From contig CBDAFS010000010.1 in assembly GCA_965195285.1 (NCBI GenBank), positions 1 through 28,392 on the forward strand: a stretch of 28,392 nt of DNA, read 5' to 3'. The DNA comes from an uncultured Aminicenantes bacterium. GTDB taxonomy: Bacteria > Acidobacteriota > Aminicenantia > UBA2199. Shown here in pieces: positions 2-21,593 of this stretch. A model generated the notes under the pieces. The model saw only the letters and a list, made by a program, of their open reading frames with translations, was not told the DNA's origin and did no database searches. A program made the translations under genes and the position numbers. How positions within the stretch are numbered: the first letter of the stretch is position 1; the number at the start of each line of letters is the position of its first letter.

Positions 2-1867
2 GAACAGGCAACCGGAGACAAAATGGATCACCGTTCCGACATCTGGTCCCTGGGTGTGCTGCTATACGAAATGATCACCGGCCAACTTCCCTTCAAAGGC
101 GAATACGAACAGGCCGTCATGTACGCCATCATGAACGAAGATCCGGAACCTGTGACTGGCCTGAGGACTGGTATTCCCAAGGAGCTGGAACGCATCGTCA
201 ACAAAACCCTGAATAAAAATCCGCAGGAGCGTTACAACAATACGGGCGACCTCATCGTCGATTTAAAAAATCTGCAAAAACAACAGAACTCCAAAGGGAT
301 CAAACATTCCCGGGATTTAGCCACGTGGAAAAAGCCAAGCGCCCAAAAACAATGGCTGCCCTTCATCATGGCCGCGCTGATCATACTGATTGTGGCTGGG
401 TATTTTATCCTGAAGCAACCGCAACGATCTGGAGAATCGCAAACTCAAAAACCCTCTGAACAAACTTCCACGACGCACAGCCAATGGAAAAACTCCATCG
501 CGGTTCTCCCGTTCACCAATATCAGCGCTGACCGGGAGCAGGAGTATTTCTGTGACGGTATGACCGAAGAGATCATTACCAAGCTGACTACTATCAATGA
601 TCTGAAGGTGATTTCCCGAACCTCGGTGATGAGATTTAAAAACAGTAAAAAAACCATCAAGGAAATCGGCCGGCAACTGGCAGTGAAAAATGTGTTAGAG
701 GGCAGCGTGAGAAAGGATAAAAACCGGATCCGGATTACGGCCCAGTTGATAAGGGTGTCTGACGACGCCCACCTGTGGGCCAAGAACTATGACCGGAAAC
801 TTGAAGATATTTTTACTATTCAGGACGAGGTGTCCAAGGCAATTTCCAATTCACTGGAAGTCACCCTTTCTCCCGGAGTACTGGATCAGTTTAAATCGAG
901 GGAAACCCAAAATATGTTGGCCTATGAGTATTATCTGAAAGGCATATTTTTGATGAATTCCCGATATTTAAACACACTGGAAGAGGAAGATTTTCGGCAG
1001 GCTGTCAGGATGCTGGAAAAGGCATTGGAATTGGATCCCACATATGCCAAAGGCTACATCGGACTGGTGTGGGCTTACACCAGCCACTTGATGTATACTG
1101 GAAACCAGGGGGATCTTAAGGAAGTCTTGAAATTATCTAAAAAACTGGAGGAAATCGCGCCGGATTCTACGCGGGGACACTTTGTTCTAGGGATGTATTA
1201 CACATTAAAAAAAGATTTTGACCGGGCCTTTGCCCATCTTAAAAGGGCATGGACAATTTCCTCCAATGATGCAGATTTATCATACATGATCGGTTTCTTT
1301 TATTATCGGGCCGGCCTTTACAAGAAAGCCATCAGATTCTGTGACAGGGCGATTGATCTCGACCCGCTCATGCCCCATTCCTATACGACGCCGATCCTCT
1401 GTTCCATTTATTTACAAGAATACAGAAGAGCGGAATCTTATATCAAAAAGGCAACCGAACTTCGCAAAGATCATCCCGTTCTCCTGCTATTTATATGCGG
1501 CTTCTATCTCCGTACCGGCCAATATGAAAGGGCGGAAAAAATCCTGGAGAAGTTGAAGGAAGTTAACCACAATCCCGGAAATGTTAACTCTTTGCAGGCG
1601 ATTTTGTATGCTCTCAGGGGTGAACGGAACAAGGTGCTGGAATTGAACCATACATCCTCCCAGGCATTCGCCATTCTGGGTTTAAAAGATCGGGCCATTG
1701 CCATCATCCAAAAATCTCTGGAATCCAATCAAGATTCCAATAAATATTTATTCTTAATCAATCAGTCTTTCTATGACAATTTGAGAGATGATCCCCGCTT
1801 TCAAAAGATCGTGGCGGATGCCAAAGAGATTTATGAAGAGCGGTTGAGGAAATATGGGGATTTGTAA
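2..1867 (+). CDS. Ser/Thr protein kinase (5'-truncated by window edge) with TM helix, TolB-like/adenylate-cyclase-associated domain and TPR repeats
   Basis: The frame is open from base 2 (EQATGDKMDHRSDIWSLGVLLYEMITGQLPF = kinase subdomains VIII-IX). It continues with a hydrophobic helix (WLPFIMAALIILIVAGYFIL), the TolB-like motif SIAVLPFTNIS...EYFCDGMTEEII, and TPR-like repeats (EKALELDPTYAKGY, DRAIDLDP). Confidence 0.9.
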   Translation, partial: EQATGDKMDHRSDIWSLGVLLYEMITGQLPFKGEYEQAVMYAIMNEDPEPVTGLRTGIPKELERIVNKTLNKNPQERYNNTGDLIVDLKNLQKQQNSKGIKHSRDLATWKKPSAQKQWLPFIMAALIILIVAGYFILKQPQRSGESQTQKPSEQTSTTHSQWKNSIAVLPFTNISADREQEYFCDGMTEEIITKLTTINDLKVISRTSVMRFKNSKKTIKEIGRQLAVKNVLEGSVRKDKNRIRITAQLIRVSDDAHLWAKNYDRKLEDIFTIQDEVSKAISNSLEVTLSPGVLDQFKSRETQNMLAYEYYLKGIFLMNSRYLNTLEEEDFRQAVRMLEKALELDPTYAKGYIGLVWAYTSHLMYTGNQGDLKEVLKLSKKLEEIAPDSTRGHFVLGMYYTLKKDFDRAFAHLKRAWTISSNDADLSYMIGFFYYRAGLYKKAIRFCDRAIDLDPLMPHSYTTPILCSIYLQEYRRAESYIKKATELRKDHPVLLLFICGFYLRTGQYERAEKILEKLKEVNHNPGNVNSLQAILYALRGERNKVLELNHTSSQAFAILGLKDRAIAIIQKSLESNQDSNKYLFLINQSFYDNLRDDPRFQKIVADAKEIYEERLRKYGDL

Positions 1868-1882: not shown

Positions 1883-3409
1883 TTAAAGATACTTATCCAG
1901 GCTCATGACCTTGGGCGGATTGCTCTGCCCCCAGAAATATTGATTGATCAGTTTCAGGGAATCGGTAGCCTCCTGGCCGGACATGAACCGGCCCCAGAAA
2001 ACCAGGTAACAAATCCGGTTTCCCAGGTCGCGTTTCAGAATAAAAAACTGGTCTTTCCGGTCAATCCGGTTGTAGGCATTCAGAACCGACTCTTTCTGGC
2101 AATCCAGCTCCAGCAGAATACTGTGGCTGATACCGGCCCGTTTGAGTTCCTTCTTCCAGGCATCACAGGCCTCGTAAAAATCACCATCTTTAAAATGGAT
2201 AATAGCGGTTTTTCCGGTCTTGGGTTTTTGGGTTGGCTTGACGACCGGGGACACAGATTCTTTCGGAGTCTGCCTGGGAGGAGTGGTCTTCTGCTGAGCT
2301 CCTTTCGCTTTCTGCATTTTTATGACAATGGGCTGGTCTTTATCGGTTGCAGCTTTCGGCTTTTTTTCTGTAACGGTTACTACATCTTTCCGGATTGACC
2401 GGTCTGGTTTTTTATCCGGGGCCTCATCATCCATCAACAAAATGAAAATCAAACCGCCCAGGACAAATATCAGAATAATGAAAATAATGATGTAGCTGAA
2501 TTGCTTTGATTTCTTCTTTTCATCCACGCGTTTTTCCGGCATAGAAAAGGGAGCCTTGGCTCTCGGCGAAACCTCATCAGGTTTTGCCTTCTGTTTTTTT
2601 CCGAAAACAAAGGCATCCTTCTGGGGCATTTTTTTCGGGTCCGCAGATGCCTTGGGATCCTGATCCTCTACCAAAATCGTTTTTTGAACGGGTTTGGGCT
2701 CGATTTTCAGGATCAATTCGCTCAGAAAAAAGAAATAGATAATTTTCAAAATCGAGCCCTGGTGTTCCTCGGGATAGGAAGTAAGAATATTAGCTATGGC
2801 AACCTTACCGTTAAAGCGGCTCAGCAGTGTTTTCTGTTTATCATTCAAATTGTATTTGTTTAACTTTTCTGCATCCGGGTTGCTGCTCAGCATCAATTCC
2901 ATCGAACCGATTTGCTTTTCGATATATTCCTCATCCAGAAACTGGGTAATGTAATTAAATACAAAATTTAAAATATTGATATCAAGATTCAGCAGGGCAT
3001 CGGGCGGAGATTCTTCAACGAACTGGAATCTTCCTTCATCCCACTTTAAAACACTCATCACGATATTTCTGAATTGTTCCTTGGTAGATTCAATCAAATC
3101 CTCCAGGGTAATCATGCCCTTTTCAACCAGGATTTTCCCCTTTGATTCCGAAATATGCTCTTCCTCATTGACCTGGTTGAGTGCTTTTTCATCCAGCAGC
3201 TTCTTGGCCAGCAGTATATTTTCAAGCCGGTCCACATCCGAATTGGATATAGCCGCATAAAATTTTCCCCGGTTGAAATACAGAACCTTCAGCGCCGCCT
3301 CAGGCCCCTCCTTTTTTAAATACAGTACCCCAGAGGAATTTTGTTCAAAAATTGTAATCAACAACTTGACAATTGGAATCTGGCTCAGGGAACCTTTATT
3401 CATGTCCAT
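1883..3409 (-). CDS. DUF4388 (PatA_N-like) domain membrane protein with probable C-terminal SPOR-like domain
   Basis: N-terminal GSLSQIPIVKLL...SGVLYL...LYFNRG...LKWDEGRFQF pattern, one TM helix (YIIIFIILIFVLGGLIFILL), a Lys/Pro-rich linker, and C-terminal YLVFWGRF..QEA..SLKLI resembling SPOR. Confidence 0.7.
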   Translation of the reverse strand: MDMNKGSLSQIPIVKLLITIFEQNSSGVLYLKKEGPEAALKVLYFNRGKFYAAISNSDVDRLENILLAKKLLDEKALNQVNEEEHISESKGKILVEKGMITLEDLIESTKEQFRNIVMSVLKWDEGRFQFVEESPPDALLNLDINILNFVFNYITQFLDEEYIEKQIGSMELMLSSNPDAEKLNKYNLNDKQKTLLSRFNGKVAIANILTSYPEEHQGSILKIIYFFFLSELILKIEPKPVQKTILVEDQDPKASADPKKMPQKDAFVFGKKQKAKPDEVSPRAKAPFSMPEKRVDEKKKSKQFSYIIIFIILIFVLGGLIFILLMDDEAPDKKPDRSIRKDVVTVTEKKPKAATDKDQPIVIKMQKAKGAQQKTTPPRQTPKESVSPVVKPTQKPKTGKTAIIHFKDGDFYEACDAWKKELKRAGISHSILLELDCQKESVLNAYNRIDRKDQFFILKRDLGNRICYLVFWGRFMSGQEATDSLKLINQYFWGQSNPPKVMSLDKYL

Positions 3410-3538: not shown

Positions 3539-3567
3539 TTGACAAACCATATGAAAAGGATTAAAAT
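3539..3567 (+). promoter_or_regulatory. sigma70 promoter for the cobalamin riboswitch/B12 operon
   Basis: TTGACA (3539-3544), 17 nt, TAAAAT (3562-3567). The predicted start at about 3574 coincides with the 5' arm of the riboswitch closing stem. Confidence 0.85.
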
Positions 3568-3573
3568 AATTTT

Positions 3574-3790
3574 TTAAGGCTTGATTCAAGGGAAGAGGCA
3601 AAAGCGCGGATCCCTGTTGATCCCCTTTAAGCCCACAGCCCCCGCTGCCGTGACCGTGGAAAAGTCTTTAAAATGAATCACCACTTCTTCGCCAGCCGGA
3701 GAGGGAAGGTGTTTTAAAGATCCCGGGAGTCGGAAGACCTATTAAGCCTTAACTTTTTATATACATGCTGCGGAGGGCAGTGTGTATAAA
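3574..3790 (+). promoter_or_regulatory. Cobalamin (B12) riboswitch with downstream P13-like hairpin
   Basis: AAGGGAA; CAGCCCCCGCTGCCGTGA (variant of GCCCCCGCnACTGT); CACCACT...GGGAAGGTG; B12-box GAGTCGGAAGACCT. A 12-bp closing stem pairs TTAAGGCTTGAT (3574-3585) with ATTAAGCCTTAA (3741-3752). The hairpin TATACATGCTGC-GGAGG-GCAGTGTGTATA has a GCGGAGG segment that can kiss CCCCCGC. It lies directly upstream of btuB. Confidence 0.92.
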
Positions 3791-3862: not shown

Positions 3863-5713
3863 ATGTACAAAAAAATCTGTTTCTTTTTTATGTGCCTGGT
3901 ATTGTCTTTCACACTTTTTTCAGAAAAAGCAACATCTGATGAAAAAAAGGAATCCTCTTCTACAAAAAAACCCACTGAAAAATCAATGTTTGTAGAAGAG
4001 GTTGAAGTGTTGGGGAAAATCCCTGTTAACAGGGCCATCCAGAGTGTAACAGTTTACAGCAAGGAGGAGATGGAACAATTCAACAACGAGACTTTAAAAT
4101 CATTATTAAACCAGACAGCAGGATTCCTGGTACTCGGTAGTGGCCATCCCGGTCAGTTCGCCTATTCATTTGCCAGGGGAGCTTCACTAAACCAGACTCT
4201 TTTTCTTATCGATGGCTTTAAAATGACCGATCCTTCAACCTCAATCGGCTTAAATCTGACTTTTGTTTCACCCAATCTATTTGAAAAAATTGAAATTGTC
4301 AGAGGGCCACTTGGTTATATATACGGTTCCAATGCCATGGGCGGTGTCATCAATCTGAAAACCAGAGAAAAGGAGGGCATCGAACTGACAACATTTGCCG
4401 GCAGTCACGGCACTTACGAAGGCAACTTCTACCTTTCCAAAAAGGCAGGGGATTTCAAATTCATCCTGAACGGCAATTTACTGAGGTACAGTGACGGAGT
4501 CGAGAACGATGAATTTAAAAACAGAAGCATTAAAGCAAAGATAGGATATGATAAAGAGGGATTAAAAACAGGATTTATATTTTTTGGGAATTTTGCCAAC
4601 TCCGGTATCCCCTTCAGCATGGGTAATCCTACCCCAAATCGAATATATTCCCAGAATAACTATCTTTTTGCTTTACCCTTCAGTTATAAATTCCCAGGAC
4701 CTACAATCCTTAATATTAAATTGTCCCACAACTATAACATGTATGAATTTGAAGACCCCGACGACACCTGGAATTCATATTTCATGAATAAATCAAGAAT
4801 AAATGAAGCTCAGGTTGCGGTTCGCACAAAACCATTAAAAAATCTATTTATAAATACGGGAATAGATTATTCCGATCAGAAAATAACAAACGAGGATAAT
4901 ACAGAAAAACAACTTGATGATGAAAACACAAATTATATCTCCGCTTTCCTAAATGCCGGACTGGAGCTAGAAAGACTTTTTATATCGGCCTCGCTTCGTT
5001 ATGACAAGTATAGAGATATAGATGAAGAGTTCTCGCCTCAGCTGGGTTTATCTTACCTCTTCTCAGGCATCTTTAAAATCAGGGCTTCTTACTCAGAGAA
5101 TTTTCGCGCCCCAACCCTTCCAGAACTGTTGAATCCTATGTGGGGAAATCCAGATTTACAACCGGAAAAGGGAAAATCTTTTGAAATCGGAGCCGATATT
5201 TACACCAAAGCGGCAACCTTCAGCCTGGTATATTTCAATTCTGAATATAAAAACCTGATCGGGTTTAATCCCACCACCTGGGTATTTGACAATTTAAATG
5301 AAGCTGATATATCAGGAATAGAATTAAGTGCCAGGGTGATCCTATTCAAGCAGATCACATTATGGGCGGCCTACACCTATCTGGACACTTATGATATTCA
5401 GCATGATCAGGAGTTACTGAGACGCCCCAAACACTCGATTTCGGCCATGATATCCTATAAACACAAATATTTTTTCATCTCTGGTGAAATGATCTATGTG
5501 GGTAAAAGACTGGATTACGATGAACTGCTCTGGGAAACCTCTGAAAGCCCCTCTTTCAATACCTTTAATTTCAATCTGTCCATTCCCCTGAATGAAAAAC
5601 TGTCCTTGATCGGAAAGGCTACCAATGCTTTCAATCAGGAATACCAGGAAGTTTTAGGTTATCCGGCCCCGGGAAGCCGTTTCATTTTGGGAATAAAATA
5701 TAAAATAATGTAG
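3863..5713 (+). CDS. btuB: TonB-dependent corrinoid (vitamin B12) receptor
   Basis: Signal peptide, TonB-box-like EEVEV, plug motifs (RGASLNQTLFLIDG; EKIEIVRGP...YGSNAMGGVINL), GNPDLQPE, C-terminal GYPAPGSRFILGIKY. RBS AAGGAG upstream; downstream of a B12 riboswitch. Confidence 0.9.
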   Translation: MYKKICFFFMCLVLSFTLFSEKATSDEKKESSSTKKPTEKSMFVEEVEVLGKIPVNRAIQSVTVYSKEEMEQFNNETLKSLLNQTAGFLVLGSGHPGQFAYSFARGASLNQTLFLIDGFKMTDPSTSIGLNLTFVSPNLFEKIEIVRGPLGYIYGSNAMGGVINLKTREKEGIELTTFAGSHGTYEGNFYLSKKAGDFKFILNGNLLRYSDGVENDEFKNRSIKAKIGYDKEGLKTGFIFFGNFANSGIPFSMGNPTPNRIYSQNNYLFALPFSYKFPGPTILNIKLSHNYNMYEFEDPDDTWNSYFMNKSRINEAQVAVRTKPLKNLFINTGIDYSDQKITNEDNTEKQLDDENTNYISAFLNAGLELERLFISASLRYDKYRDIDEEFSPQLGLSYLFSGIFKIRASYSENFRAPTLPELLNPMWGNPDLQPEKGKSFEIGADIYTKAATFSLVYFNSEYKNLIGFNPTTWVFDNLNEADISGIELSARVILFKQITLWAAYTYLDTYDIQHDQELLRRPKHSISAMISYKHKYFFISGEMIYVGKRLDYDELLWETSESPSFNTFNFNLSIPLNEKLSLIGKATNAFNQEYQEVLGYPAPGSRFILGIKYKIM

Positions 5714-5747: not shown

Positions 5748-6572
5748 ATGAAAATTATTAAGATATTATTAATTTTTATTACCATTTTCCCATCCCTTAT
5801 CTTTTCCGAAAGAATCATCACCCTGGCTCCGGCCTTAACTGAAATTGTTTTTGCCCTGGGTAAAGGAGACTCTATAGTCGGTAATACACGGTTTTGTGAT
5901 TTCCCTGAAAAAGCCAGAGCCATCACCAAAATCGGTGGCTTTATGGATCTGAATATTGAAATGGTCATCAATCTGAAACCGGATTTAATCATACTATATC
6001 CGGAAAATTTTGAAAAAATGAAAATATTAAAAAACCGAACAAAACTTTTAACTGTCAATCATAAGACTCTGAATCATCTCTATGAGGCCATTACAACAAT
6101 ATCGAAGGAATTGAAGGAAATCACAAAAGGGGAGTTCATGGTCTCAAACATAAAAATAACACTGGAAAATATCCGCAACAAATCTCAAAATAAGAAAAAA
6201 AGGAAGACATTATTAATTGCTGGAAGAAATCCGGATCAATTATCAAACATGTATGTGATCGGAAACAAGGATTTTTTAAACGATATACTTGAGATTTCAG
6301 GTGGAATCAATGCTTACACCGGCAATATACTCTACCCTAATATATCAATCGAATCAGTTGTTAGTATGAACCCGGACTATATAATAGAGCTTTCTGCTTT
6401 CAATCAACAAATTCAAGAAGATAAAATATTAAAGCTTTGGGAAAAATATAAAATAATAACTGCAGCCAGAAGAAACAGAATAATAATTATAAAAGACTCA
6501 TTTTGGTTCAGACCCGGACCCAGGGTTGTAAAAATCGCAGAAAAACTATATGAACTGTTTTCAAATAATTAG
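5748..6572 (+). CDS. btuF: Periplasmic cobalamin-binding protein (helical-backbone class III SBP)
   Basis: Signal peptide; RIITLAPALTEIVFALG...VG.TRFCDFP; LKPDLI; RPGPR motif; operon context. Confidence 0.88.
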   Translation: MKIIKILLIFITIFPSLIFSERIITLAPALTEIVFALGKGDSIVGNTRFCDFPEKARAITKIGGFMDLNIEMVINLKPDLIILYPENFEKMKILKNRTKLLTVNHKTLNHLYEAITTISKELKEITKGEFMVSNIKITLENIRNKSQNKKKRKTLLIAGRNPDQLSNMYVIGNKDFLNDILEISGGINAYTGNILYPNISIESVVSMNPDYIIELSAFNQQIQEDKILKLWEKYKIITAARRNRIIIIKDSFWFRPGPRVVKIAEKLYELFSNN

Positions 6573-6733: not shown

Positions 6734-7456
6734 TTGAGAAGTATAAAGAATATTATTGCCGCCTTTCAATTCTTGACATCCATTCCGCTTCCTATAAAAA
6801 CCGACCGTGATAATTTAAATAAATCTATTCTTTGGTTTCCTTTAGTCGGAGCCGTAATCGGATTTATAACGGGCTATGGATATCTATTCCTGAATCAATA
6901 TGTAAGCGATAATCTTTCATCAATATCCGTTATTTTTATTTATTTACTTATTACCAGGGGATTACACCTTGATGGTTATATAGACACTATCGACGGATTT
7001 TTCAGCAGAAAAAACAGACATACAATTTTAACAATAATGAAAGAACCGACAGCAGGAAGTTTTGCGGTTATGGGAACGGGAATATGGTTTTTAACCATGT
7101 TCTCCACACTTCCGTTACTTAAACCCGAAGATCAAATAATAATTCACACCCTGTCACGATTGAATATAATTCTTTTAGCTGTTTTATTTCCCTATGCCAG
7201 GAAAGATGGTTGCGGTAAATTTTTTGTAAAAAGTGTAAATAAAAATACATTTATTCTTGCTATGATTCCAACCTTTATCACCATTTGTTTAATAAATTTA
7301 TCTTATGCTAAATATTTTTTTCTTTCTATTTTAATATCACTTTTTATAGGAATATGGTCAGAAAAAAAGATAAACGGTATAACCGGTGATATATTAGGTT
7401 TTACAGTTGAAGCAACAAACCTTGTTTTATTGGTATCATTGAATATAAAAATTTAA
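6734..7456 (+). CDS. cobS: Adenosylcobinamide-GDP ribazoletransferase (cobalamin synthase)
   Basis: AFQFLTSIP, WFPLVG, TRGLHLDGYIDTIDG and GITGDILG motifs; multi-TM protein; TTG start. Confidence 0.92.
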   Translation: MRSIKNIIAAFQFLTSIPLPIKTDRDNLNKSILWFPLVGAVIGFITGYGYLFLNQYVSDNLSSISVIFIYLLITRGLHLDGYIDTIDGFFSRKNRHTILTIMKEPTAGSFAVMGTGIWFLTMFSTLPLLKPEDQIIIHTLSRLNIILLAVLFPYARKDGCGKFFVKSVNKNTFILAMIPTFITICLINLSYAKYFFLSILISLFIGIWSEKKINGITGDILGFTVEATNLVLLVSLNIKI

Positions 7457-7504
7457 TTGAGGTACCGATTTGCTTTTTTATCTACGATTTTTTTATGGCA
7501 GGAA

Positions 7505-8566
7505 ATGAAAGATTTAAATAAATATATGAATGAAATTGAGGATATCGATACTTTTTTCTCGAAAAAAGCGAGAGAAAGAGAAGATATCCTGACAAAACCC
7601 AATGGAAGCCTTGGAAAACTTGAAGAAATTGCAATTGAAATAGCCGCCATGAAAAGAGAGGAAATCCCCAAGATACACAGAAAAGTCATATTCACCTTGG
7701 CTGGAGATCATGGTGTTGTTGAAGAAGGTGTGAGTGCCTACCCACAAGAAGTAACATCCCAGATGATTTATAATTTTATTGAAGGAGGCGCTGCAATTAA
7801 TATTCTTGCCTCACATGCCGGCTCTGAAATCATTGTGGCTGACTTTGGTGTTGCCTCGGAGTTGAATATTGCCGGCAATAACTTCAGAAATAGAAAAATA
7901 AACTACGGAACCAAAAATATAGCAAAAGAACCTGCCATGACAAAGGAGGAAGCGATAAAGTCAATAATGACGGGTATTATATTGTTTGAAGAAGAATATA
8001 AAAAAGAGAAAATCGATCTTGTAGGTATCGGAGAGATGGGAATAGGAAATACCACGCCTGCGACTACAATACTTGCTGTGATTAACGGAGAAAAAATAGA
8101 AACAATCGTCGATAGAGGAACGGGTATCTCCGATAAAGGATTAAAAAGAAAAATAGCTGCTATTAAAAAGGCAATAAAATTACATAAACCGGAAAAAGAT
8201 AACGGAATTGACATTCTGCAAAAGGTTGGCGGATATGAAATCGGAGGTCTTACCGGAATCATACTGGCAGCAGCAAGAAATAGAACTCCTATTCTAATCG
8301 ATGGATTTATTTCCACATCTGCGGCTTTAATCGCCAAGATATTAAATCCTGTATCAATCAGTTATATAATAGCATCTCACAAATCAAAAGAATCCGGACA
8401 TGAAAAAATGCTGGAAATACTTAAAAAGAAACCCATTTTAAATTTAGATTTACGACTTGGTGAGGGTAGCGGCGCTGCACTTGCCATGAATATTGTAGAA
8501 TCAGCAATCAAAATTTTAAATAAAATGGCAACTTTCGAATCTGCCGGAATAAGTAAAAAAAAATAA
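7505..8566 (+). CDS. cobT: Nicotinate-nucleotide-dimethylbenzimidazole phosphoribosyltransferase
   Basis: LTKPNGSLGKLE, AGDHGV..EGVSAYP, GEMGIGNTT, DGFIS, LRLGEGSGA. Start placed at ATG 7505 after GCAGGA; the ORF is open from 7457. Confidence 0.95.
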   Translation: MKDLNKYMNEIEDIDTFFSKKAREREDILTKPNGSLGKLEEIAIEIAAMKREEIPKIHRKVIFTLAGDHGVVEEGVSAYPQEVTSQMIYNFIEGGAAINILASHAGSEIIVADFGVASELNIAGNNFRNRKINYGTKNIAKEPAMTKEEAIKSIMTGIILFEEEYKKEKIDLVGIGEMGIGNTTPATTILAVINGEKIETIVDRGTGISDKGLKRKIAAIKKAIKLHKPEKDNGIDILQKVGGYEIGGLTGIILAAARNRTPILIDGFISTSAALIAKILNPVSISYIIASHKSKESGHEKMLEILKKKPILNLDLRLGEGSGAALAMNIVESAIKILNKMATFESAGISKKK

Positions 8567-8568
8567 CC

Positions 8569-9858
8569 ATGAAAAAAATCACTTTAATACTCGGCGGTAT
8601 AAGAAGCGGTAAATCATATTTCGCTGAAAAAAAAGCGCTGTTTTATTCTGATAAACCGGTATATATCGCCACTTCGATACCATTTGATGAGGAAACAATA
8701 TATAGGATTAAAATTCACAAAAAAAGAAGAAAATTAAAATTCAAATTAATTGAAGAACCTTATGACCTGACAAAGGTATTAAATAATTTATCCAGGCAAA
8801 CGGTTATTATTGACTGTTTAACTTTAAATTTATCAAACAGGTTGCTATTAAAAAAAAAGAACCTGAATCTTGAAAATTTAATTAAGGATGATGAAATATA
8901 TTTAAATAAAATTTATAAAATCATTAATAAGAATGAGTTAAATATTATTTTCGTTAGTAATGAGGTCGGTTGCGCACCGGTAGAAATAAATAAGCTCGGA
9001 AGATATTTTCAAGAACTTCAGGGAAGATGGAACAGAATAATAGCCGGATATGCAAATGAAGTATATAATGTTCAGGCCGGTATAACGAGAACAATTAAGA
9101 AAGAAGATATTTTTCCCTTTAAAATCAGTGCCCCTTCCTACCTGTTACCAACAGGATATATTGAAAATGTAACCTATTTATTGAATAAGGTGGATGATAT
9201 CCAACTTCTACTTTTTGACAGCATGTCAGACGACCCTTTATTTAAGGACAGTACTATAAACACACTTAATTATTTAGCAGAAGAATCAAATATTACTTAT
9301 TCTATTCATATGCAGGTAAGACCTAAAATATTTGAAGATTATGAAAAAAGATTGGATATAACACTATTTACAATAGAGAAATTAAATAAATTAAATATCA
9401 GTTCATTCATGTTCCATTATGACTTGCCGGATAATGTTAAATGGGAAAATTTAAAAGAAAAAGAAGCCAAAGAAATCGATGATAAATATATTATATTTTT
9501 ACAAACCATAAAAAATAATTTTAAAAAAATCAATATATCTCTTGAAAACACAGAAACTCCCTTATCCGCACTCGATAGAGTCGTCTTAAAATGTGATATA
9601 ACTTATTGTATCGATATTGGCCACCTGCTATTTCAAAAAAGAGATCTATCTGAAATTGAAAGCCGATTAATTAAAACCCGTGTTTTACACATACATGGAA
9701 TTGAAAAAAAAGGAAATAAATTTTGTGACCATAAGGCAATAACCTACAATCGAGACATTTTTAAAATTATTGAGAAATTTAAAGGAATTTTAACAATTGA
9801 AAATTATCATCCAACCCTGTTCGAAAAAAGCCTAAAAGTTTTACAAGAATATTTTTAA
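8569..9858 (+). CDS. cobU: Fusion: N-terminal adenosylcobinamide kinase/Cbi-phosphate guanylyltransferase (CobU/CobP, aa ~1-178) + C-terminal AP-endonuclease-2/xylose-isomerase-like TIM barrel resembling cobamide-remodelling phosphodiesterase CbiR (aa ~182-429)
   Basis: CobU motifs GGIRSGKS, YIAT, RIKIHKKRR, IDCLT, VSNEVG, VQAGI. Then FKISAPSY...NVTYL...VDDIQLLLFDS, SIH, SLEN, CIDIGH, HIHG, DH, LTIE, which fit the metal-ligand pattern of AP_endonuc_2 barrels. One uninterrupted 429-aa ORF. Confidence 0.85.
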   Translation: MKKITLILGGIRSGKSYFAEKKALFYSDKPVYIATSIPFDEETIYRIKIHKKRRKLKFKLIEEPYDLTKVLNNLSRQTVIIDCLTLNLSNRLLLKKKNLNLENLIKDDEIYLNKIYKIINKNELNIIFVSNEVGCAPVEINKLGRYFQELQGRWNRIIAGYANEVYNVQAGITRTIKKEDIFPFKISAPSYLLPTGYIENVTYLLNKVDDIQLLLFDSMSDDPLFKDSTINTLNYLAEESNITYSIHMQVRPKIFEDYEKRLDITLFTIEKLNKLNISSFMFHYDLPDNVKWENLKEKEAKEIDDKYIIFLQTIKNNFKKINISLENTETPLSALDRVVLKCDITYCIDIGHLLFQKRDLSEIESRLIKTRVLHIHGIEKKGNKFCDHKAITYNRDIFKIIEKFKGILTIENYHPTLFEKSLKVLQEYF

Positions 9859-9900: not shown

Positions 9901-10698
9901 ATGAAAAAGATGCAGAGTAACAGAAATGCCGATTATGGAAATGAAATAGAAATACATGATTTAACCTATCAGATAAAGGGAAAAACAATCCTGAATGATG
10001 TAAATTTAAAAATAAAAAAGAGTGATTTCTGGCTGATTTTCGGTCCCAATGGAGCCGGGAAAACAACTTTATTTAAAATTTTGACTGGATTGATCGGGAA
10101 TTATAAAGGCGAAATTCATGTCGATACCGAGAATATAAAGAAAAAATCAAGAAAAGAAATAGCAAAAAAAATTTCTTACCTCCCCCAGTTTGATGAATTT
10201 TCACTCCCGTTATCGGTAAAGGAAATTCTTCTGGCAGGACGATATCCCTACACTTCTTTTTTTAGGGATTATTCAACAAATGATTACGCCATATTGAATG
10301 AGGCTGTTGAACAATTCGGACTCGACGACTTTCTAAATCGGGACATCAATACCCTGAGCGGAGGCGAGCGGAAAAAAGTCATGCTGGCATCCGCTTTTAT
10401 TCAGGATGTATCCATCATTCTCCTGGATGAGCCATTCACATTTCTTGACCCTCAGGCGGCTTCGAATCTGAAAAAAAACCTGGTCACATTGAATAAGGGA
10501 GGGAAAACCATAATCATCATATCCCACCATATCGAAACTTTATTCCCTCTGGTCAATAAAACAGCGGCTTTGAAATCAGGCAATCTCATCTATTCCGGTG
10601 ATAAGGTATTTGACCGGGATATTTTAGCCAAAACTTATGGAATTCAATTCAATCATCTGGTCCTGGAAAACCGAGAAATCATTTTCATCGATGAATAA
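9901..10698 (+). CDS. btuD: ABC transporter ATP-binding subunit (cobalamin/iron-siderophore type, BtuD-like)
   Basis: Walker A GPNGAGKTT, LSGGE signature, ILLDEP Walker B, H-loop ISHH. Confidence 0.85.
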   Translation: MKKMQSNRNADYGNEIEIHDLTYQIKGKTILNDVNLKIKKSDFWLIFGPNGAGKTTLFKILTGLIGNYKGEIHVDTENIKKKSRKEIAKKISYLPQFDEFSLPLSVKEILLAGRYPYTSFFRDYSTNDYAILNEAVEQFGLDDFLNRDINTLSGGERKKVMLASAFIQDVSIILLDEPFTFLDPQAASNLKKNLVTLNKGGKTIIIISHHIETLFPLVNKTAALKSGNLIYSGDKVFDRDILAKTYGIQFNHLVLENREIIFIDE

Positions 10699-11665
10699 AA
10701 AATATCTTCTGCTTTTGATTATTGGCCTTGTAATGGTAATGTTACTCCCCTTTATCGGAATTATTAACATAAATTTAGCTTCTCTTTTTGAGAACAGCAA
10801 CAGCAGTTTTATCTTCTGGCAAATCCGGATTCCCCGGACATTACTGGGATTCATGGCCGGTTCGTCCCTGGCCCTGGCCGGCCTCATTTTTCAAAATATA
10901 TTTAAAAATAGCCTGGCCACACCCTATACCCTGGGAGTGTCTTCCGGTGCAGCGGCTGGTGTTGTCCTGGGTATCAAACTAAATTTATCCATGACTTTTC
11001 TGGGCCTAAACGGTCTTTATATATACGGTTTTGCCGGGGCCCTGCTATCGATCGGGGTGATCCTGGGAATTGCCCGAATAGTAAAGAGTTATTCAATCTA
11101 TACCCTTCTGATGTCCGGAGTGGCTCTTAATTTCCTTTTCTCATCCATTATCGTACTGATTCAATATCTTTTTGATTTCACCCAGACCATTTCCATCCTG
11201 CGCTGGTTGATGGGAGGAATTACCCCTATCGGGTACAAGGAATTATTGTTTTTATTCCCCCTGTATATTTTTTTCATCCTGGGAACTTATTTTTTGAAAA
11301 ATGAGTTGCTCATCGCATCCGCCGGAGAAGAATTTGCCTATTCCAAGGGATTGGATATTCGAAAATTCAGAATCATTATTTTCGTTGCTGTGTCTTTCAT
11401 GATCGGGATTCTGGTTTCTTTTGTCGGCCCCATCGGGTTTATCGGACTGATTGTCCCTCACACTGCCAGACTTTTATTTAAGAGAGACTTCAAGTTAATG
11501 CTTGGTTTTACCATAATTTTAGGAGGAATGCTGCTGACCTTGACTGATTTTTTGGCCCGCACCATGATTCCGCCGGCCGAAATTCCGGTGGGCATCATCA
11601 CTTCATTGATGGGAGCTCCCTTCTTCCTCTTTGTGCTGATCACCCATTTGCGAAAGAGCCGGTGA
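10691..11665 (+). CDS. btuC: FecCD-family ABC permease (BtuC-like)
   Basis: IRIPR...G..LALAGLIFQ..FKN.LA.PY.LGVSSGA; GPIGFIGLIVPH; EIPVGIITSLMGAPFF. ATG 10691 overlaps the btuD stop by 8 nt. Confidence 0.88.
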   Translation: MNKKYLLLLIIGLVMVMLLPFIGIININLASLFENSNSSFIFWQIRIPRTLLGFMAGSSLALAGLIFQNIFKNSLATPYTLGVSSGAAAGVVLGIKLNLSMTFLGLNGLYIYGFAGALLSIGVILGIARIVKSYSIYTLLMSGVALNFLFSSIIVLIQYLFDFTQTISILRWLMGGITPIGYKELLFLFPLYIFFILGTYFLKNELLIASAGEEFAYSKGLDIRKFRIIIFVAVSFMIGILVSFVGPIGFIGLIVPHTARLLFKRDFKLMLGFTIILGGMLLTLTDFLARTMIPPAEIPVGIITSLMGAPFFLFVLITHLRKSR

Positions 11666-15904: not shown

Positions 15905-17017
15905 TTAATTTTTTTTGACTGTTCTGACAAAATGATTTGATAAGGCTTTATACAACTTTCCTTGAAATATATTGTCGATTTTTTTCAAACTTTTTAAGCC
16001 AAAAACAAAAGCTATGGCAATCGGATCGGCCCGGTAATCCGTATGCCCTTCATAAAAACCATATCTCATAATGTAATAAGGAGCCATCTCACTGAAATGA
16101 ATACAGCAAAGTTTCTTTTCAAGTTCAGCCATTTGTTTTTTGGAGAGATGGGAATATTTTTTCTCTACATATAATTTTTCTTCAAGGGATAATTGATATT
16201 GAATATTCATACTGAACGTTCCCTGGATTTCATCCTGAAATATGGATACCTGCCATCCCTTGGTTCCACTTGCATTCAGTTTGATCTTCCTCCCATTGTA
16301 AAACACATATTGAATGTTGGCCCAGAACCTCCCCCAGTTTTTTAATTCAATTTCCTTAAGGATGATATTCCAGATATGAAAAAGAGGTTTGGCCATCTGA
16401 GGATGGGTCAGGTTTAGCTTTCTAACCAAACGGTTATCACCTTTCAAAACCGAGATGATGTCTTCATCATGGGCCATGAAACCCGCTCCTGAAAACCTTC
16501 CGGGACATCCAATATAGGTGATAACTTCAACAGGAATACCGGTAATCATGGTTTTTTCATTCAATTGCTGCTCGTTGTGCAGCCCGGTTTTTACCAGATC
16601 AGGAAAATCGCCCGAGTCCACCTCCAGCTGACGGTCTTTTCCAAATAAAGATTTAATTTTTCTGCTATAAAGTAAAGGATTTCCATTTTCTACTGTAACC
16701 GGGATAAGAGTAAATTTATTTTTTTTTGTAAAGGCGATCACCACCTCCATGCCATCCTCAGTCCTGAATGGAGAAGGCACATCGGGCATTTGATCAAGGG
16801 TTTTGGGATAGAGAAGATAGGTTTTTTGATTATGGTAAATCTGAACAGGTTTGTCCTCTGAAGAACCTATTGATTTATCGACAACCAATAAAACAAATAA
16901 TAAAAAAATAATCAACTGTAATTTGGTTTTGCGTATTATTCTTATTCTCCATGCTAAAAATCCATCATCATTATTAATATACCAGTATAATTCTTTATTT
17001 ACAAACGATATGCTCAA
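15905..17017 (-). CDS. Hypothetical, probably exported/membrane-anchored protein (start uncertain)
   Basis: 370-aa ORF with the hydrophobic segment LIIFLLFVLLVV after basic residues; natural-looking composition; no recognisable catalytic motif. Confidence 0.65.
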   Translation of the reverse strand: MSISFVNKELYWYINNDDGFLAWRIRIIRKTKLQLIIFLLFVLLVVDKSIGSSEDKPVQIYHNQKTYLLYPKTLDQMPDVPSPFRTEDGMEVVIAFTKKNKFTLIPVTVENGNPLLYSRKIKSLFGKDRQLEVDSGDFPDLVKTGLHNEQQLNEKTMITGIPVEVITYIGCPGRFSGAGFMAHDEDIISVLKGDNRLVRKLNLTHPQMAKPLFHIWNIILKEIELKNWGRFWANIQYVFYNGRKIKLNASGTKGWQVSIFQDEIQGTFSMNIQYQLSLEEKLYVEKKYSHLSKKQMAELEKKLCCIHFSEMAPYYIMRYGFYEGHTDYRADPIAIAFVFGLKSLKKIDNIFQGKLYKALSNHFVRTVKKN

Positions 17018-20227: not shown

Positions 20228-21394
20228 ATGAAGCTGAGCAAGGCAAAAATCATTGATATCCTAAAAATCACCGAGGATATCAACCATATCAAGGACATCG
20301 ATTCGTTACTGGACCGGGTCCTGACCGAGGCCCGCCATTTCACAGGAGCGGATGCCGGCTCCATTTACCTGGTCAGGGGAAATAAATTGTCCTTTGAATA
20401 TGTCCATAATGAAACCCTGGAAAAAGAGGATGCCTCCAGCAACCGCCATATATATCAAAAAAAGGAAATGGACATTGATCCGCACTCCCTAGCCGGTTAT
20501 GTGGCCCTGACAAAGCTGCCCCTGGCCATCGATGATGCCTACCGAATCGGCAAAGGCCTCCCCTATTCCTTTAATAAGTCCTTTGACCTGCAGTCGGATT
20601 ACCATACCGGTTCCATCCTGACCGTGCCCCTGGTCACCAGCCGGGACCATATCACCGGGGTGATGCAGATCATCAATCCCACCGATAAATCGGGCTCTCC
20701 CGTCACCTTCAGCCAGGATCATCAGCTGCTGGTCTCCTACCTGGCTTTTCATGCGGCTGTGGCCATTGAAAAGGCCATGATGACCCGGGAAATGATCCTG
20801 AGGATGATTAAGATGGCCGAGCTCCGGGACTCCAAGGAAACCGGGCCACATGTCAACCGGGTGGGCGCCTACAGCATTGAGATTTATCATCGCTGGGCCC
20901 TGTCCCGTCAGATCCCTCTGGACAAAATTAAAAAAACCAAAGACATTCTGCGTATTGCCGCCATGCTCCATGACATCGGTAAAATCGGGGTCACCGATGC
21001 CATACTGAAAAAAAAAGAAGAGTTGTCCGAAGCCGATTGGGAGCAGGTCAAGAGGCATGCCGAATACGGGTTCCGCCTGTTTGAGGACACCAGTTCGGAA
21101 TGGGAAGACATGGCGGCTGAAGTGGCCCTGTGCCACCACGAGAGATGGGATGGCCGGGGATACCCCCGGCAGATAAAGGGAGATAAAATTCCCATCACCG
21201 CGCGGATCGTGGCCCTGGCCGATGTGTATGACGCACTGGTGTCCAAGCGCAGTTACAAGGATTCCTGGGATGAGCAAAAAATACTGGAATTCATCCGGCA
21301 GGAACGGGGCAAGCATTTTGACCCGGGAGTGGCGGATGCCTTTTTATCTATCATTGACATCATCAAGGCCATCCAGGGAAAATACCCCATATGA
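20228..21394 (+). CDS. GAF + HD-GYP domain cyclic-dinucleotide phosphodiesterase
   Basis: GAF (ADAGSIYL...SILTVPL...GVMQIIN); ETGPHVNRV, LHDIGKIG, HHERWDGRGYP, ARIVALADVYDAL. Confidence 0.93.
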   Translation: MKLSKAKIIDILKITEDINHIKDIDSLLDRVLTEARHFTGADAGSIYLVRGNKLSFEYVHNETLEKEDASSNRHIYQKKEMDIDPHSLAGYVALTKLPLAIDDAYRIGKGLPYSFNKSFDLQSDYHTGSILTVPLVTSRDHITGVMQIINPTDKSGSPVTFSQDHQLLVSYLAFHAAVAIEKAMMTREMILRMIKMAELRDSKETGPHVNRVGAYSIEIYHRWALSRQIPLDKIKKTKDILRIAAMLHDIGKIGVTDAILKKKEELSEADWEQVKRHAEYGFRLFEDTSSEWEDMAAEVALCHHERWDGRGYPRQIKGDKIPITARIVALADVYDALVSKRSYKDSWDEQKILEFIRQERGKHFDPGVADAFLSIIDIIKAIQGKYPI

Positions 21395-21470
21395 ATTTGC
21401 CTTAATAACCTGAATAAATACCCGAAGTCATATCAAATCCATTTGGATTAACTTTTGGTGATTTCAGGCA

Positions 21471-21499: not shown

Positions 21500-21593
21500 T
21501 AAGAGGGGGTAAAATTAAATCACATATGAAAAAAATGAAAGCAGATTTATGATGTCAATTATTCAAGAACGCCAGGGGGACTGATCCCGGAAA

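What the first reader, a model, noticed from the sequence alone, without database searches (positions are those of the whole stretch)
8569..9858. CobU fused to a CbiR-like phosphodiesterase: candidate single-chain cobamide 'cut-and-reactivate' enzyme
Seen in the sequence: an intact CobU domain (P-loop G9-S16; RxxxH50 equivalent to the guanylylated His) continues with almost no linker (junction ~9100-9111) into a ~250-aa TIM barrel. The barrel has AP-endonuclease-2-type ligands H247, E326-N327, D349-x-G-H352, H374/H376, D387-H388 and E411. Established knowledge: CobU is normally a stand-alone ~180-aa protein, and Akkermansia muciniphila CbiR is an AP-endonuclease-2-superfamily phosphodiesterase that cleaves cobamides to cobinamide-phosphate. 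Cobinamide-phosphate is the substrate of CobU's guanylyltransferase step. Inference: the fusion removes the lower ligand from an imported cobamide and passes Cbi-P directly to the GDP-activating site. I do not know of a characterised CobU-CbiR fusion, but cannot confirm it is undescribed.
Basis: partly seen in the sequence, partly recalled or inferred. Interest (0 to 1): 0.88.

Follow-up and report, generated by a model that had tools for sequence, protein, structure and literature searches.

The report
Natural CobU–CbiR fusion for B12 remodelling
This gene joins two known vitamin-B12 salvage enzymes into one protein, one that cuts the lower part off an imported B12-type cofactor and one that re-activates the remaining core for rebuilding, and this natural fusion seems not to have been described before.

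Summary
ORF 8569..9858 (+) is an intact 429-aa protein. Residues 1-178 are a CobU domain: Pfam PF02283 at 147 bits, P-loop G9-S16, and H50 aligned with the His mutated in PDB 9vit. Residues 184-429 pass NCBI's CbiR equivalog model (134 bits, cut-off 105).

The fusion is not an artefact. 76 of 88 database hits cover the whole protein. The linker length is fixed in 73 of 78 homologues. No in-frame start codon lies at the junction.

The C-domains form one clade inside the CbiR clade. They keep all 12 columns that are invariant in 51 canonical CbiRs.

The gene sits in a cobalamin-riboswitch operon: btuB-btuF-cobS-cobT-cobU/cbiR-btuD-btuC. I found no CbiB, CbiZ or CbiC in the genome, and no second CobU. 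It does encode methylmalonyl-CoA mutase, MetH-like and B12-radical-SAM enzymes.

The most likely function is import of a cobamide, CbiR cleavage to cobinamide-phosphate, CobU guanylylation, and rebuilding by CobT and CobS. Direct hand-over between the two sites is untested.

Other CbiR fusions also exist: CbiR-CobU, CobT-, CobS-, CbiJ- and BtuD-CbiR. I found no paper describing the fusion. I rate it a new variant of a known kind, of moderate interest.

The parts
3539..3567 (+). sigma-70-like promoter match (TTGACA-17-TAAAAT, 11 of 12) just upstream of the riboswitch
   Evidence: This is weak evidence: the region has 32 such matches against 31.2 expected. It is, however, the best-scoring + strand match, and it abuts the riboswitch.
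3565..3760 (+). Cobalamin riboswitch aptamer (RF00174)
   Evidence: 56.3 bits against a gathering score of 31.5, E 1.2e-11, full model 1-189.
3863..5713 (+). BtuB-like TonB-dependent outer-membrane receptor
   Evidence: the best NCBIfam matches are TonB-B12 TIGR01779 (219 bits) and BtuB NF007926. Both are below their equivalog cut-offs.
5748..6572 (+). BtuF-like periplasmic corrinoid-binding protein
   Evidence: the best match is NF002894 BtuF (97 bits, below cut-off). The TroA-like subfamily is matched above its cut-off.
6734..7456 (+). cobS, adenosylcobinamide-GDP ribazoletransferase
   Evidence: TIGR00317 at 123.7 bits against a cut-off of 110.
7457..8566 (+). cobT, nicotinate-nucleotide:base phosphoribosyltransferase
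   Evidence: NF000996 at 445 bits against 306, and TIGR03160 at 433 bits against 319.
8569..9102 (+). CobU domain of the fusion (aa 1-178): cobinamide kinase / cobinamide-phosphate guanylyltransferase, with P-loop G9-S16 and H50
9103..9117 (+). short linker (aa 179-183, E-D-I-F-P). It contains no in-frame ATG, GTG or TTG.
   Evidence: DNA; same junction length in 73 of 78 homologues.
9118..9858 (+). CbiR domain of the fusion (aa 184-429, plus stop): metal-dependent TIM-barrel phosphodiesterase. Conserved residues are S190, N200, H247, H283, E326, D349, H352, H374, H376, D387, H388, E411 and S421.
9901..10698 (+). BtuD/FecE-type ABC transporter ATPase
   Evidence: the top matches are iron/haem/corrinoid ABC ATPase families, all below equivalog cut-offs.
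10637..11665 (+). BtuC-type ABC transporter permease
   Evidence: the best match is NF003001 BtuC (192 bits, below the cut-off of 334).

Best explanation
The gene encodes a genuine two-domain enzyme of cobamide (vitamin B12 family) remodelling and salvage.

Proposed mechanism. The operon is switched on by a cobalamin riboswitch when the cofactor is scarce. BtuB, BtuF, BtuC and BtuD import a corrinoid. The C-terminal CbiR domain, a metal-dependent AP-endonuclease-2-type TIM barrel, hydrolyses the phosphoribosyl bond of the nucleotide loop. That releases the unwanted lower-ligand riboside and leaves cobinamide-phosphate. The N-terminal CobU domain of the same polypeptide transfers GMP from GTP through His50 to give cobinamide-GDP. 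CobT activates the preferred base, CobS joins it to the activated core, and a phosphatase finishes the cofactor. If cobinamide itself is imported, the CobU kinase activity would feed the same route.

Shown here: the domain identities, conserved catalytic residues, conservation of the fusion, the operon, and the auxotrophic genome background.

Inferred: the enzyme activities themselves, taken from A. muciniphila CbiR (Mok et al. 2020) and from characterised CobU. Any kinetic advantage of the fusion (proximity or channelling of cobinamide-phosphate, or fixed 1:1 stoichiometry) is also only inferred.
For: Domain identities: CobU PF02283 at 146.7 bits. The CbiR equivalog NF041277 scores 133.9 bits against 105 over model positions 1-249 of 249.

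Catalytic residues: all 12 columns invariant in 51 canonical CbiRs are kept in the window protein and in at least 77 of 79 fused homologues. The P-loop is invariant and H50 is conserved in at least 90% of 78. H50 aligns with A. muciniphila CobU H49 (9vit title).

Structure: the AlphaFold2 model has pLDDT 94.9 and pTM 0.90. Foldseek matches the N-domain to CobU structures (TM 0.79-0.89 normalised to the target) and the C-domain to xylose-isomerase-like TIM barrels.

Conservation of the fusion: 76 of 88 hits cover 100% of the query at 36-97% identity. 78 of 78 aligned fused proteins match CbiR at E <= 1e-30, and 76 of 78 match CobU at that level. The fused C-domains form one clade (SH-aLRT 100) inside the CbiR clade.

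Operon: riboswitch, transport genes, cobS and cobT. The order cobS-cobT-fusion recurs in L032, L033, L034, L044 and L045.

Genome background: one CobU and one CbiR, both in this gene. I found no CbiB, CbiZ or CbiC, in a genome estimated 94.9% complete. Cobamide users are present: methylmalonyl-CoA mutase, a MetH-like protein, a corrinoid protein with a homocysteine methyltransferase, and a B12-radical-SAM enzyme. In 5 of 5 other fusion-bearing genomes checked, the fused frame is the only CobU match.

Chemistry: Mok et al. 2020 (PMC7733943, passages read) showed that CbiR turns AdoCbl into AdoCbi-P plus alpha-ribazole. They also showed that E. coli needs only cobT, cobS, cobU and cobC to rebuild a cobamide from that product.
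Against: No activity was measured for this protein or for any fused homologue.

The CbiR domain is divergent. It scores 134 bits where typical CbiRs score 225-270. It is 23-32% identical to stand-alone CbiRs and sits on a long stem of 1.83 changes per column.

One near-invariant canonical residue is changed. The Asp of the H-L-P-x-D motif (49 of 51 canonical) is R251 here and mostly Lys in fused proteins. Canonical Tyr and Trp positions are T330 and I303.

The CobU domain scores 140.8 bits, below the NCBIfam equivalog cut-off of 161. Pfam PF01261 does not hit the sequence.

No cobC lies in the operon. The only candidate is a histidine phosphatase elsewhere, at 136 bits against a cut-off of 162.9.

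In G643 the most divergent fused gene sits among unrelated genes. Three genomes of the same genus gave no full-length match to this protein, at 70, 87 and 91% completeness, and no CobU above cut-off. The trait is therefore accessory.

Nothing here shows channelling.
Confidence: 0.8

Rival explanations
1. Both domains are active, but the fusion has no kinetic meaning. It is a neutral or merely co-expression-fixing fusion of two neighbouring genes. Cobinamide-phosphate diffuses freely, and the CobU domain serves mainly as the cell's ordinary nucleotide-loop assembly enzyme.
For: cbiR and cobU are adjacent separate genes in another genome of the phylum (G011, order cbiR-cobU-cobS), so a fusion could arise by simple loss of a stop codon. 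CbiR is also found fused to several different partners, some of which catalyse no adjacent step, such as precorrin-6A reductase. The fused CobU is the only CobU in 6 of 6 genomes checked, so it must also do the ordinary job.
Against: The junction length is fixed in 73 of 78 homologues, and K177 and F184 at the junction are invariant. The single-chain model has pTM 0.90. The fused C-domains carry their own set of conserved residues that canonical CbiRs lack: P189, D222, M248, P252, D285, D336, Y346, R366 and H414. All of this suggests a fixed, selected arrangement. None of it proves coupling.
Confidence: 0.4
2. The C-terminal barrel has drifted from CbiR to another phosphoester reaction of the same pathway. 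One candidate is removal of the 5'-phosphate from the cobamide-phosphate product or from alpha-ribazole-phosphate, a CobC-like role. Another is hydrolysis of a different corrinoid or nucleotide ester. In that case the protein would be an assembly enzyme and not a remodelling enzyme.
For: The domain lies on a long stem and scores low against the CbiR model. The near-invariant canonical Asp is replaced by Arg or Lys. No cobC lies in the operon, and the only genomic candidate is below the CobC cut-off. From memory, not from any call: endonuclease IV relatives can also act as 3'-phosphatases.
Against: The domain still passes the CbiR equivalog cut-off over the whole model. It keeps all 12 CbiR-invariant columns. 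It is nested within, not beside, the CbiR clade.
Confidence: 0.07
3. The fusion is an assembly, binning or gene-calling artefact that joins two separate genes.
For: The genome is a draft of 62 contigs.
Against: There is one open frame with no stop and no in-frame start codon at the junction. 76 of 88 hits, from JGI, NCBI, ENA and Logan, cover 100% of the query. Fused frames occur in 7 of the 8 family-f1 genomes that have CobU and in 9 full-length loci of named public records.
Confidence: 0.01

Closest known systems
CbiR of Akkermansia muciniphila (Amuc_1679), cobamide remodelling phosphodiesterase (Mok et al. 2020, mBio, PMC7733943)
   Same: Same family by the NCBIfam equivalog NF041277 and by tree placement. 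The invariant His, Asp and Glu columns are the same. The genomic setting is the same: next to cobS, cobT and cobU and to transport genes, which the paper reports for 80% and 25% of homologues.
   Different: A. muciniphila CbiR is a stand-alone protein, whereas here the domain is the C-terminal half of a CobU fusion. The domain is divergent: 134 bits against 225-270 for typical members. It has R251 in place of a near-invariant Asp and a set of clade-specific conserved residues. I could not obtain the A. muciniphila sequence from any tool, so no direct residue-by-residue mapping to the published mutants was made.
CobU / CobP, bifunctional adenosylcobinamide kinase / adenosylcobinamide-phosphate guanylyltransferase (PDB 1cbu, 1c9k, 8yes, 9vio-9vit)
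   Same: Same fold (TM 0.79-0.89 normalised to the target). Same P-loop and catalytic His position. About 30-36% identity.
   Different: Known CobU proteins are about 170-200 aa and stand alone. This one carries a 245-aa CbiR barrel at its C-terminus and scores just under the NCBIfam equivalog cut-off (140.8 against 161).
CbiZ amidohydrolase route of cobamide remodelling (Rhodobacter sphaeroides, Dehalococcoides)
   Same: Same physiological purpose: remove an unwanted lower ligand and rebuild the cofactor (as described in PMC7733943).
   Different: The bond cut and the fold are different, and the CbiZ route needs CbiB afterwards. I found neither CbiZ nor CbiB in this genome.
Other natural CbiR fusions found here (CbiR-CobU, CobT-CbiR, CobS-CbiR, CbiJ-CbiR, BtuD-CbiR)
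   Same: Each contains a CbiR domain scoring 225-260 bits joined to another cobamide pathway or transport protein.
   Different: The partners or the domain order differ. Their CbiR domains lie elsewhere in the tree. Each is a single-member cluster seen on 1-2 contigs, so they are much less well supported than the CobU-CbiR clade.

Membership tests
CbiR (NCBIfam NF041277, cobamide remodelling phosphodiesterase) | Scores above the curated equivalog cut-off over the whole model | tested here: met
   133.9 bits against a cut-off of 105, model positions 1-249 of 249, aa 184-427. The genome search gave 135.6 bits. None of 14 control genomes exceeds the cut-off.
CbiR (NCBIfam NF041277, cobamide remodelling phosphodiesterase) | Falls in the CbiR clade of the AP-endonuclease-2 superfamily, not with isomerases, epimerases or endonuclease IV | tested here: met
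   Quick IQ-TREE of 74 rows. The CbiR clade of 67 rows has SH-aLRT 95 and is separate from 6 sub-cut-off relatives and the genome's own PF01261 paralogue. Caveats: this was a short search, long branches are present, and no characterised isomerase or endonuclease IV sequences were available as outgroups.
CbiR (NCBIfam NF041277, cobamide remodelling phosphodiesterase) | Conserved His, Asp and Glu metal-ligand columns | tested here: met
   S190, N200, H247, H283, E326, D349, G351, H352, H374, H388, E411 and S421 are invariant in 51 of 51 canonical CbiRs. All are present here and in at least 77 of 79 fused proteins.
CbiR (NCBIfam NF041277, cobamide remodelling phosphodiesterase) | Near-invariant Asp of the H-L-P-x-D motif (49 of 51 canonical) | tested here: not met
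   It is R251 in the window protein, and Lys is the commonest residue in fused proteins (39 of 79). The role of this Asp is not known to me.
CbiR (NCBIfam NF041277, cobamide remodelling phosphodiesterase) | [quoted passage not shown] | tested here: met
   cobS and cobT lie directly upstream on the same strand, and the domain is fused to cobU. The criterion was read.
CbiR (NCBIfam NF041277, cobamide remodelling phosphodiesterase) | Hydrolyses cobamides to cobinamide-phosphate plus alpha-riboside | not testable with these tools
   This needs an anoxic enzyme assay.
AP endonuclease 2 / xylose-isomerase-like TIM barrel (Pfam PF01261) | Pfam model match and TIM-barrel fold | tested here: inconclusive
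   There is no PF01261 hit at E <= 1 on this sequence. Many fused homologues carry PF01261 in the precomputed column. The model's C-domain matches PDB members of the fold (9koj, 3wqo, 3dx5, 1i60, UVDE) at E 5e-8 to 2e-5.
CobU/CobP (Pfam PF02283) | Pfam match over the gathering score | tested here: met
   146.7 bits against 27, model positions 1-166 of 168.
CobU/CobP (Pfam PF02283) | NCBIfam equivalog NF004469 cut-off | tested here: not met
   140.8 bits against a cut-off of 161. The match is full-length but somewhat divergent.
CobU/CobP (Pfam PF02283) | P-loop and the His that carries GMP | tested here: met
   G9, G10, S13, G14 and K15 are invariant in 78 fused proteins, and H50 is conserved in at least 90%. 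H50 aligns with H49 of A. muciniphila CobU, which is mutated in PDB 9vit (title). That this His is the guanylylated residue is established knowledge recalled from work on Salmonella CobU.
CobU/CobP (Pfam PF02283) | CobU fold | tested here: met
   Foldseek matches 8yes, 9vis, 1cbu and 1c9k at E 1e-13 to 1e-11, TM 0.79-0.89 normalised to the target.
CobU/CobP (Pfam PF02283) | Homotrimer | not tested
   Three full-length copies exceed the size limit of complex prediction. The trimeric state of CobU is recalled knowledge.

The most novel reading that the evidence does not exclude
The fusion may be a dedicated remodelling machine and not merely two enzymes on one string.

In this reading, a CobU trimer core carries three rigidly docked CbiR barrels. 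These hand AdoCbi-P straight to the guanylyltransferase site, so the cleaved corrin never leaves the complex. The clade-specific changes in the barrel (Asp to Arg/Lys at 251, T330, R366, H414 and others) would build that interface or retune which cobamides are cut.

Together with the CobT-, CobS- and BtuD-CbiR fusions seen elsewhere, this would point to a membrane-associated import-and-remodel complex in many bacteria, including those where the genes are separate. It would also answer the question Mok et al. left open: how CbiR is kept from destroying the finished cofactor.
Probability: 0.25. Interest if true: 0.7.

Novelty: new variant of a known kind. Interest (0 to 1): 0.5.

Why it matters
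CbiR was described only in 2020. I found no solved CbiR structure by sequence or by fold. How cells stop CbiR from re-cutting the finished cofactor is an open question stated in the original paper.

A natural, well-conserved fusion to the enzyme that consumes its product gives three things:
- It is independent 'Rosetta stone' evidence that CbiR and CobU act in one pathway.
- It gives a compact one-gene module (cut plus re-activate) for engineering cobamide remodelling.
- It gives a confidently modelled target (pLDDT 95) for the first CbiR structure and for a clean test of substrate channelling.

It also predicts that these uncultured anaerobes are corrinoid scavengers that tailor other organisms' cobamides, which bears on B12 exchange in sediments and bioreactors. 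They comprise MAGs labelled Aminicenantes, plus a few labelled Spirochaetes or Leptospirales.

Tried and rejected
1. Complex prediction with the CobU domain (aa 1-178) and the CbiR domain (aa 185-429) as separate chains, each with the 78-row alignment. The verdict was 'no answer' (score 0.01, mark 0.32), and the controls were not folded. I do not use this as evidence either way.

2. I wanted the distance and orientation between H50 and the barrel's metal site.

3. I wanted to map the alanine mutants of A. muciniphila CbiR. The residue numbers are only in a figure, and I could not obtain that sequence from any tool. I used conservation across 51 canonical CbiRs instead.

I relied on conservation across independent assemblies.

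6. L007 (G220) was dropped from the tree and from the residue counts. The ORF I picked matched only part of my CbiR profile, possibly because of a frame problem.

7. The tree used 38 of the roughly 135 stand-alone representatives listed (the best-ranked, 240-300 aa). It used 16 of the 79 fused proteins used for the residue counts. It was a 'quick' search only. No AU test and no careful search was run.

8. Literature. Searches 'CbiR + cobamide remodeling', 'CbiR + fused' (swamped by image-retrieval papers), 'Aminicenantes + cobamide' (0 papers), 'CbiR + cobamide + CobU', 'CbiR + corrinoid + fusion', 'CobU + Akkermansia + crystal structure' and 'cobamide remodeling + gene fusion' found no description of the fusion. 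For Mok et al. 2020 I read passages only. In them, 'fused' occurs 0 times and 'fusion' only in the reference list. Its Table S1 and Fig. S3 list homologues and neighbourhoods and might show the fusion, but they are supplements and could not be opened. For the other papers I saw only the search listings.

9. The sigma-70 and terminator scan gave no more sites than chance. Only the single site before the riboswitch is mentioned.

10. Assembly artefact: rejected (see the rival explanations).
Full report
**1. The observation**

The window has one open frame at 8569..9858 on the + strand. It starts with ATG, two bases after the stop of the upstream gene, and encodes 429 aa.

Pfam finds CobU (PF02283) at aa 5-174 (146.7 bits, E 6.4e-43) and nothing else of note. 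NCBIfam finds two full-length matches. The first is the CobU equivalog NF004469 at aa 2-178, at 140.8 bits, just under its cut-off of 161. The second is the CbiR equivalog NF041277 ('cobamide remodeling phosphodiesterase CbiR') at aa 184-427. It covers model positions 1-249 of 249 at 133.9 bits, over its cut-off of 105.

The junction is therefore about five residues long (aa 179-183, nt 9103-9117). It contains no in-frame ATG, GTG or TTG, so the second half cannot be restarted as a separate protein there.

**2. The fusion is real, not an artefact**

A search of 5.8 billion protein clusters returned 88 hits. Of these, 76 cover 100% of the query at 36-97% identity and are 421-512 aa long. They come from JGI, NCBI, ENA and Logan assemblies.
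- In an alignment of 78 fused proteins, all 78 match the CbiR model at E <= 1e-30, and 76 match the CobU model at that level.
- The stretch spanning the junction has the same length in 73 of 78. K177 and F184, which flank the linker, are invariant.
Independent recurrence makes an assembly error untenable anyway.

**3. What the two halves are**

*The N-terminal half.*
- G9, G10, S13, G14 and K15 of the P-loop are invariant, and H50 is conserved in at least 90% of the 78.
- H50 aligns with H49 of Akkermansia muciniphila CobU. That residue is replaced in PDB 9vit, whose title reads 'CobU H49A'.
- That this His carries the GMP intermediate is established knowledge from Salmonella CobU, which I recall and did not test.
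- The AlphaFold2 model is confident (pLDDT 94.9, pTM 0.90, no segment below 50). Its N-domain superposes on CobU structures 8yes, 9vis, 1cbu and 1c9k with TM 0.79-0.89 normalised to the target.

*The C-terminal half.*
- An exhaustive HMMER search with aa 182-429 found 521 relatives at E <= 1e-3. Most of the 150 listed are stand-alone proteins of about 250-290 aa, at 23-32% identity.
- All 38 stand-alone proteins that I aligned match NF041277 at E <= 1e-30.
- I built a quick maximum-likelihood tree of 74 rows. It held 16 fused C-domains, 38 stand-alone CbiRs, 9 CbiRs with other extensions, 4 CbiRs from the window's phylum, 6 sub-cut-off relatives and the genome's own PF01261 paralogue.
- In that tree the fused C-domains form one clade (SH-aLRT 100) on a long stem of 1.83 changes per column. 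This clade sits inside the CbiR clade (67 rows, SH-aLRT 95), away from the sub-cut-off proteins and the paralogue.
- Caveats: the search was short, long branches are present, and no characterised isomerase or endonuclease IV was available as an outgroup.
- Twelve columns are invariant in 51 of 51 canonical CbiRs: S190, N200, H247, H283, E326, D349, G351, H352, H374, H388, E411 and S421. All are present here and in at least 77 of 79 fused proteins. H376, D387 and C347 are also kept.
- The spacing of these His, Asp and Glu residues resembles the nine metal ligands of endonuclease IV as I recall them. This was not tested.
- The model's C-domain matches xylose-isomerase-like / AP-endonuclease-2 TIM barrels at 8-17% identity: Art22 9koj, 3wqo, AsbF 3dx5, IolI 1i60, MbnB and UVDE. 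No CbiR structure turned up by sequence or by fold.

*Points against a textbook CbiR.*
- The score is about half that of typical members: 134 bits against 225-270.
- Pfam PF01261 misses the sequence.
- The near-invariant Asp of the canonical H-L-P-x-D motif (49 of 51) is R251 here and mostly Lys in the clade. A canonical Tyr is T330 and a canonical Trp is I303.
- The clade has its own conserved set: K177, P189, D222, M248, P252, D285, L335, D336, Y346, R366 and H414.

**4. Surroundings**

A cobalamin riboswitch lies at 3565-3760 (56.3 bits against 31.5). A near-consensus promoter-like site lies just before it at 3539-3567 (weak evidence). Seven same-strand genes follow, with short or no gaps:
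- a BtuB-like TonB-dependent receptor
- a BtuF-like binding protein
- cobS (over its cut-off)
- cobT (over its cut-off)
- the fusion
- a BtuD/FecE-type ATPase
- a BtuC-type permease

A convergent tail-specific protease gene ends the block.

The order cobS-cobT-fusion recurs in L032, L033 and L034 and in L044 and L045. L033 and L041 also have btuB and btuF upstream. In G643, which carries the most divergent fused gene (37% identity), the neighbours are unrelated: a ClpB-like ATPase, a GNAT acetyltransferase, an aldehyde dehydrogenase and a phosphofructokinase.

**5. The genome**

The assembly is 3.28 Mb in 62 contigs and is estimated 94.9% complete.
- It has exactly one CobU match and one CbiR match over cut-off, both in this gene.
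- I found no CbiB/CobD, no CbiZ and no CbiC. With the completeness caveat, that means no de novo corrin pathway and no CbiZ route was found.
- It encodes cobamide users: methylmalonyl-CoA mutase, a MetH-like methionine synthase, a small corrinoid protein next to a homocysteine methyltransferase, and a B12-binding radical-SAM enzyme.
- A histidine phosphatase elsewhere is the only CobC candidate, at 136 bits against a cut-off of 162.9.

The organism therefore looks like a cobamide auxotroph. Its only nucleotide-loop activating enzyme is physically tied to a loop-cutting enzyme.

**6. Mechanism**

Mok et al. 2020 showed that CbiR hydrolyses AdoCbl, MeCbl and other cobamides to (Ado/Me)Cbi-P plus the alpha-riboside. 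It does so only anoxically, with a reductant, and is inhibited by EDTA. They also showed that E. coli then needs only cobT, cobS, cobU and cobC to build a new cobamide (passages read).

Cbi-P is the substrate of CobU's guanylyltransferase half-reaction, which is established knowledge. The fused protein therefore carries two consecutive steps, cut and then re-activate, and the operon supplies import and the remaining assembly steps.
- What is shown here is identity, conservation and context.
- The activities are inferred from homologues.
- Direct transfer of Cbi-P is a hypothesis. The fixed short linker, the high pTM and the clade-specific conserved residues are compatible with a rigid two-domain unit. 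I could not inspect coordinates, and the one complex prediction I ran gave no verdict (see Tried and rejected).

**7. Distribution**

- In the window's class, 7 of 339 genomes, including the window's own, carry a full-length fused match. One more carries a copy cut by a contig end. All eight are in the window's family.
- In that family, 8 of 72 genomes have CobU over cut-off. Seven of the eight are fused frames of 430-580 aa, and one is stand-alone (G649, with no cbiR nearby).
- Three genomes of the same genus gave no full-length match to this protein and no CobU above cut-off. Their completeness is 70, 87 and 91%.
- In a 401-genome sample of the phylum, only 6 genomes have CbiR over cut-off. 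In one of them, G011, cbiR and cobU are adjacent but separate, in the order cbiR-cobU-cobS.
- A pattern scan of 185,579 species genomes kept the best 80 of the 500 stretches that encode a relative of the query. Among those 80, 9 loci are full-length fused and 1 is truncated at a contig end.
- The record titles of those loci name Candidatus Aminicenantes and Acidobacteria. Three records, at 50-51% identity and 34-35% GC, name Spirochaetes or 'uncultured Leptospirales'. Such labels are therefore not always reliable.
- The three spirochaete-labelled genomes were not among the 339 class genomes. In the tree their proteins branch between two groups from the window's family. That suggests transfer of the fused gene between phyla. 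This is an inference only.
- In 5 of 5 other fusion-bearing genomes checked, the fused frame is the only CobU match.

**8. Other CbiR fusions**

Among the 150 listed representatives, 13 are longer than 300 aa. I scanned 10 of them. Two of the unscanned three are known CobU-CbiR proteins, and the third is 310 aa. The ten were:
- one further CobU-CbiR (P0091)
- one CbiR-CobU in the reverse order (P0147)
- two CobT-CbiR
- one CobS-CbiR
- one precorrin-6A-reductase-CbiR
- one BtuD-like-ATPase-CbiR
- three CbiRs with unassigned 80-93-aa N-terminal extensions

The reverse-order protein sits elsewhere in the tree, with stand-alone CbiRs, so CobU and CbiR have been joined at least twice. The six fusions to other partners or in reverse order are each single-member clusters seen on 1-2 contigs. 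They are leads, not established families.

**9. Novelty and verdict**

Both domains belong to known families, and the pathway logic is the one published for A. muciniphila. What is new is the conserved single-chain architecture.
- I found no paper that mentions it.
- The main text of the CbiR paper does not mention it. Its supplementary table and figure could not be opened and may list such proteins.
- Public annotation names these proteins after one half or the other, or calls them 'hypothetical'.

I rate it a new variant of a known kind. It is a solid and useful finding for cobamide biology: Rosetta-stone evidence, a structural target, and a test case for channelling. It is not a categorically new system. 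Interest 0.5.

Noticed in passing
proteins P0147, P0186, P0216, P0192, P0204, P0230 (metagenomic; not in the window): CbiR domains scoring 225-260 bits occur fused to other partners: CobU in the reverse order, CobT (two proteins), CobS, precorrin-6A reductase, and a corrinoid-type ABC ATPase. Each is a single-member cluster on 1-2 contigs. If real, they tie CbiR to every nucleotide-loop enzyme and to import.
   Followed up: partly
L044, L045, L046 (records titled 'uncultured Leptospirales' and 'Spirochaetes bacterium GWE1_32_154'): The same CobU-CbiR fusion (50-51% identity) occurs in low-GC (34-35%) genomes outside the window's class. L044 and L045 have cobS-cobT upstream, and L046 has cobS downstream. 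In the tree these proteins branch between two groups from the window's family, which hints at horizontal transfer of the fused gene.
   Followed up: partly
L047 / L036 (G643), fused gene at L047:6001-7272: This is the most divergent fused homologue (36-37% identity). It lies among unrelated genes: a ClpB-like ATPase, a GNAT acetyltransferase, an aldehyde dehydrogenase and a phosphofructokinase. Its open frame extends about 150 codons upstream of the likely start.
   Followed up: partly
window 3565-3760 (+): A cobalamin riboswitch heads the operon. The best + strand promoter-like match of the region, TTGACA-17-TAAAAT, lies at 3539-3567, directly before it.
   Followed up: yes
window 15905-17017 (-) and 1883-3409 (-): A 370-aa ORF has no Pfam or NCBIfam match. 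A 508-aa ORF has only an N-terminal DUF4388.
   Followed up: no
window 20228-28139 (+): A signalling cluster: a GAF-HD protein, a histidine kinase, a sigma-54-dependent response regulator, a GAF-PAS protein and a multi-PAS histidine kinase. It appears unrelated to the cobamide operon.
   Followed up: no
window 2-1867 (+): An ORF cut by the window start carries the tail of a Ser/Thr protein kinase domain followed by TPR repeats.
   Followed up: no
G000:C44:17312-17839 (locus L031): A histidine phosphatase (His_Phos_1) is the genome's only CobC-like candidate, at 136 bits against the cut-off of 162.9. It lies away from the operon, next to a TPR protein.
   Followed up: partly
window 10637-10698: The listed btuC ORF overlaps the end of the ATPase gene by 62 nt. 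The true permease start is probably a later start codon.
   Followed up: no
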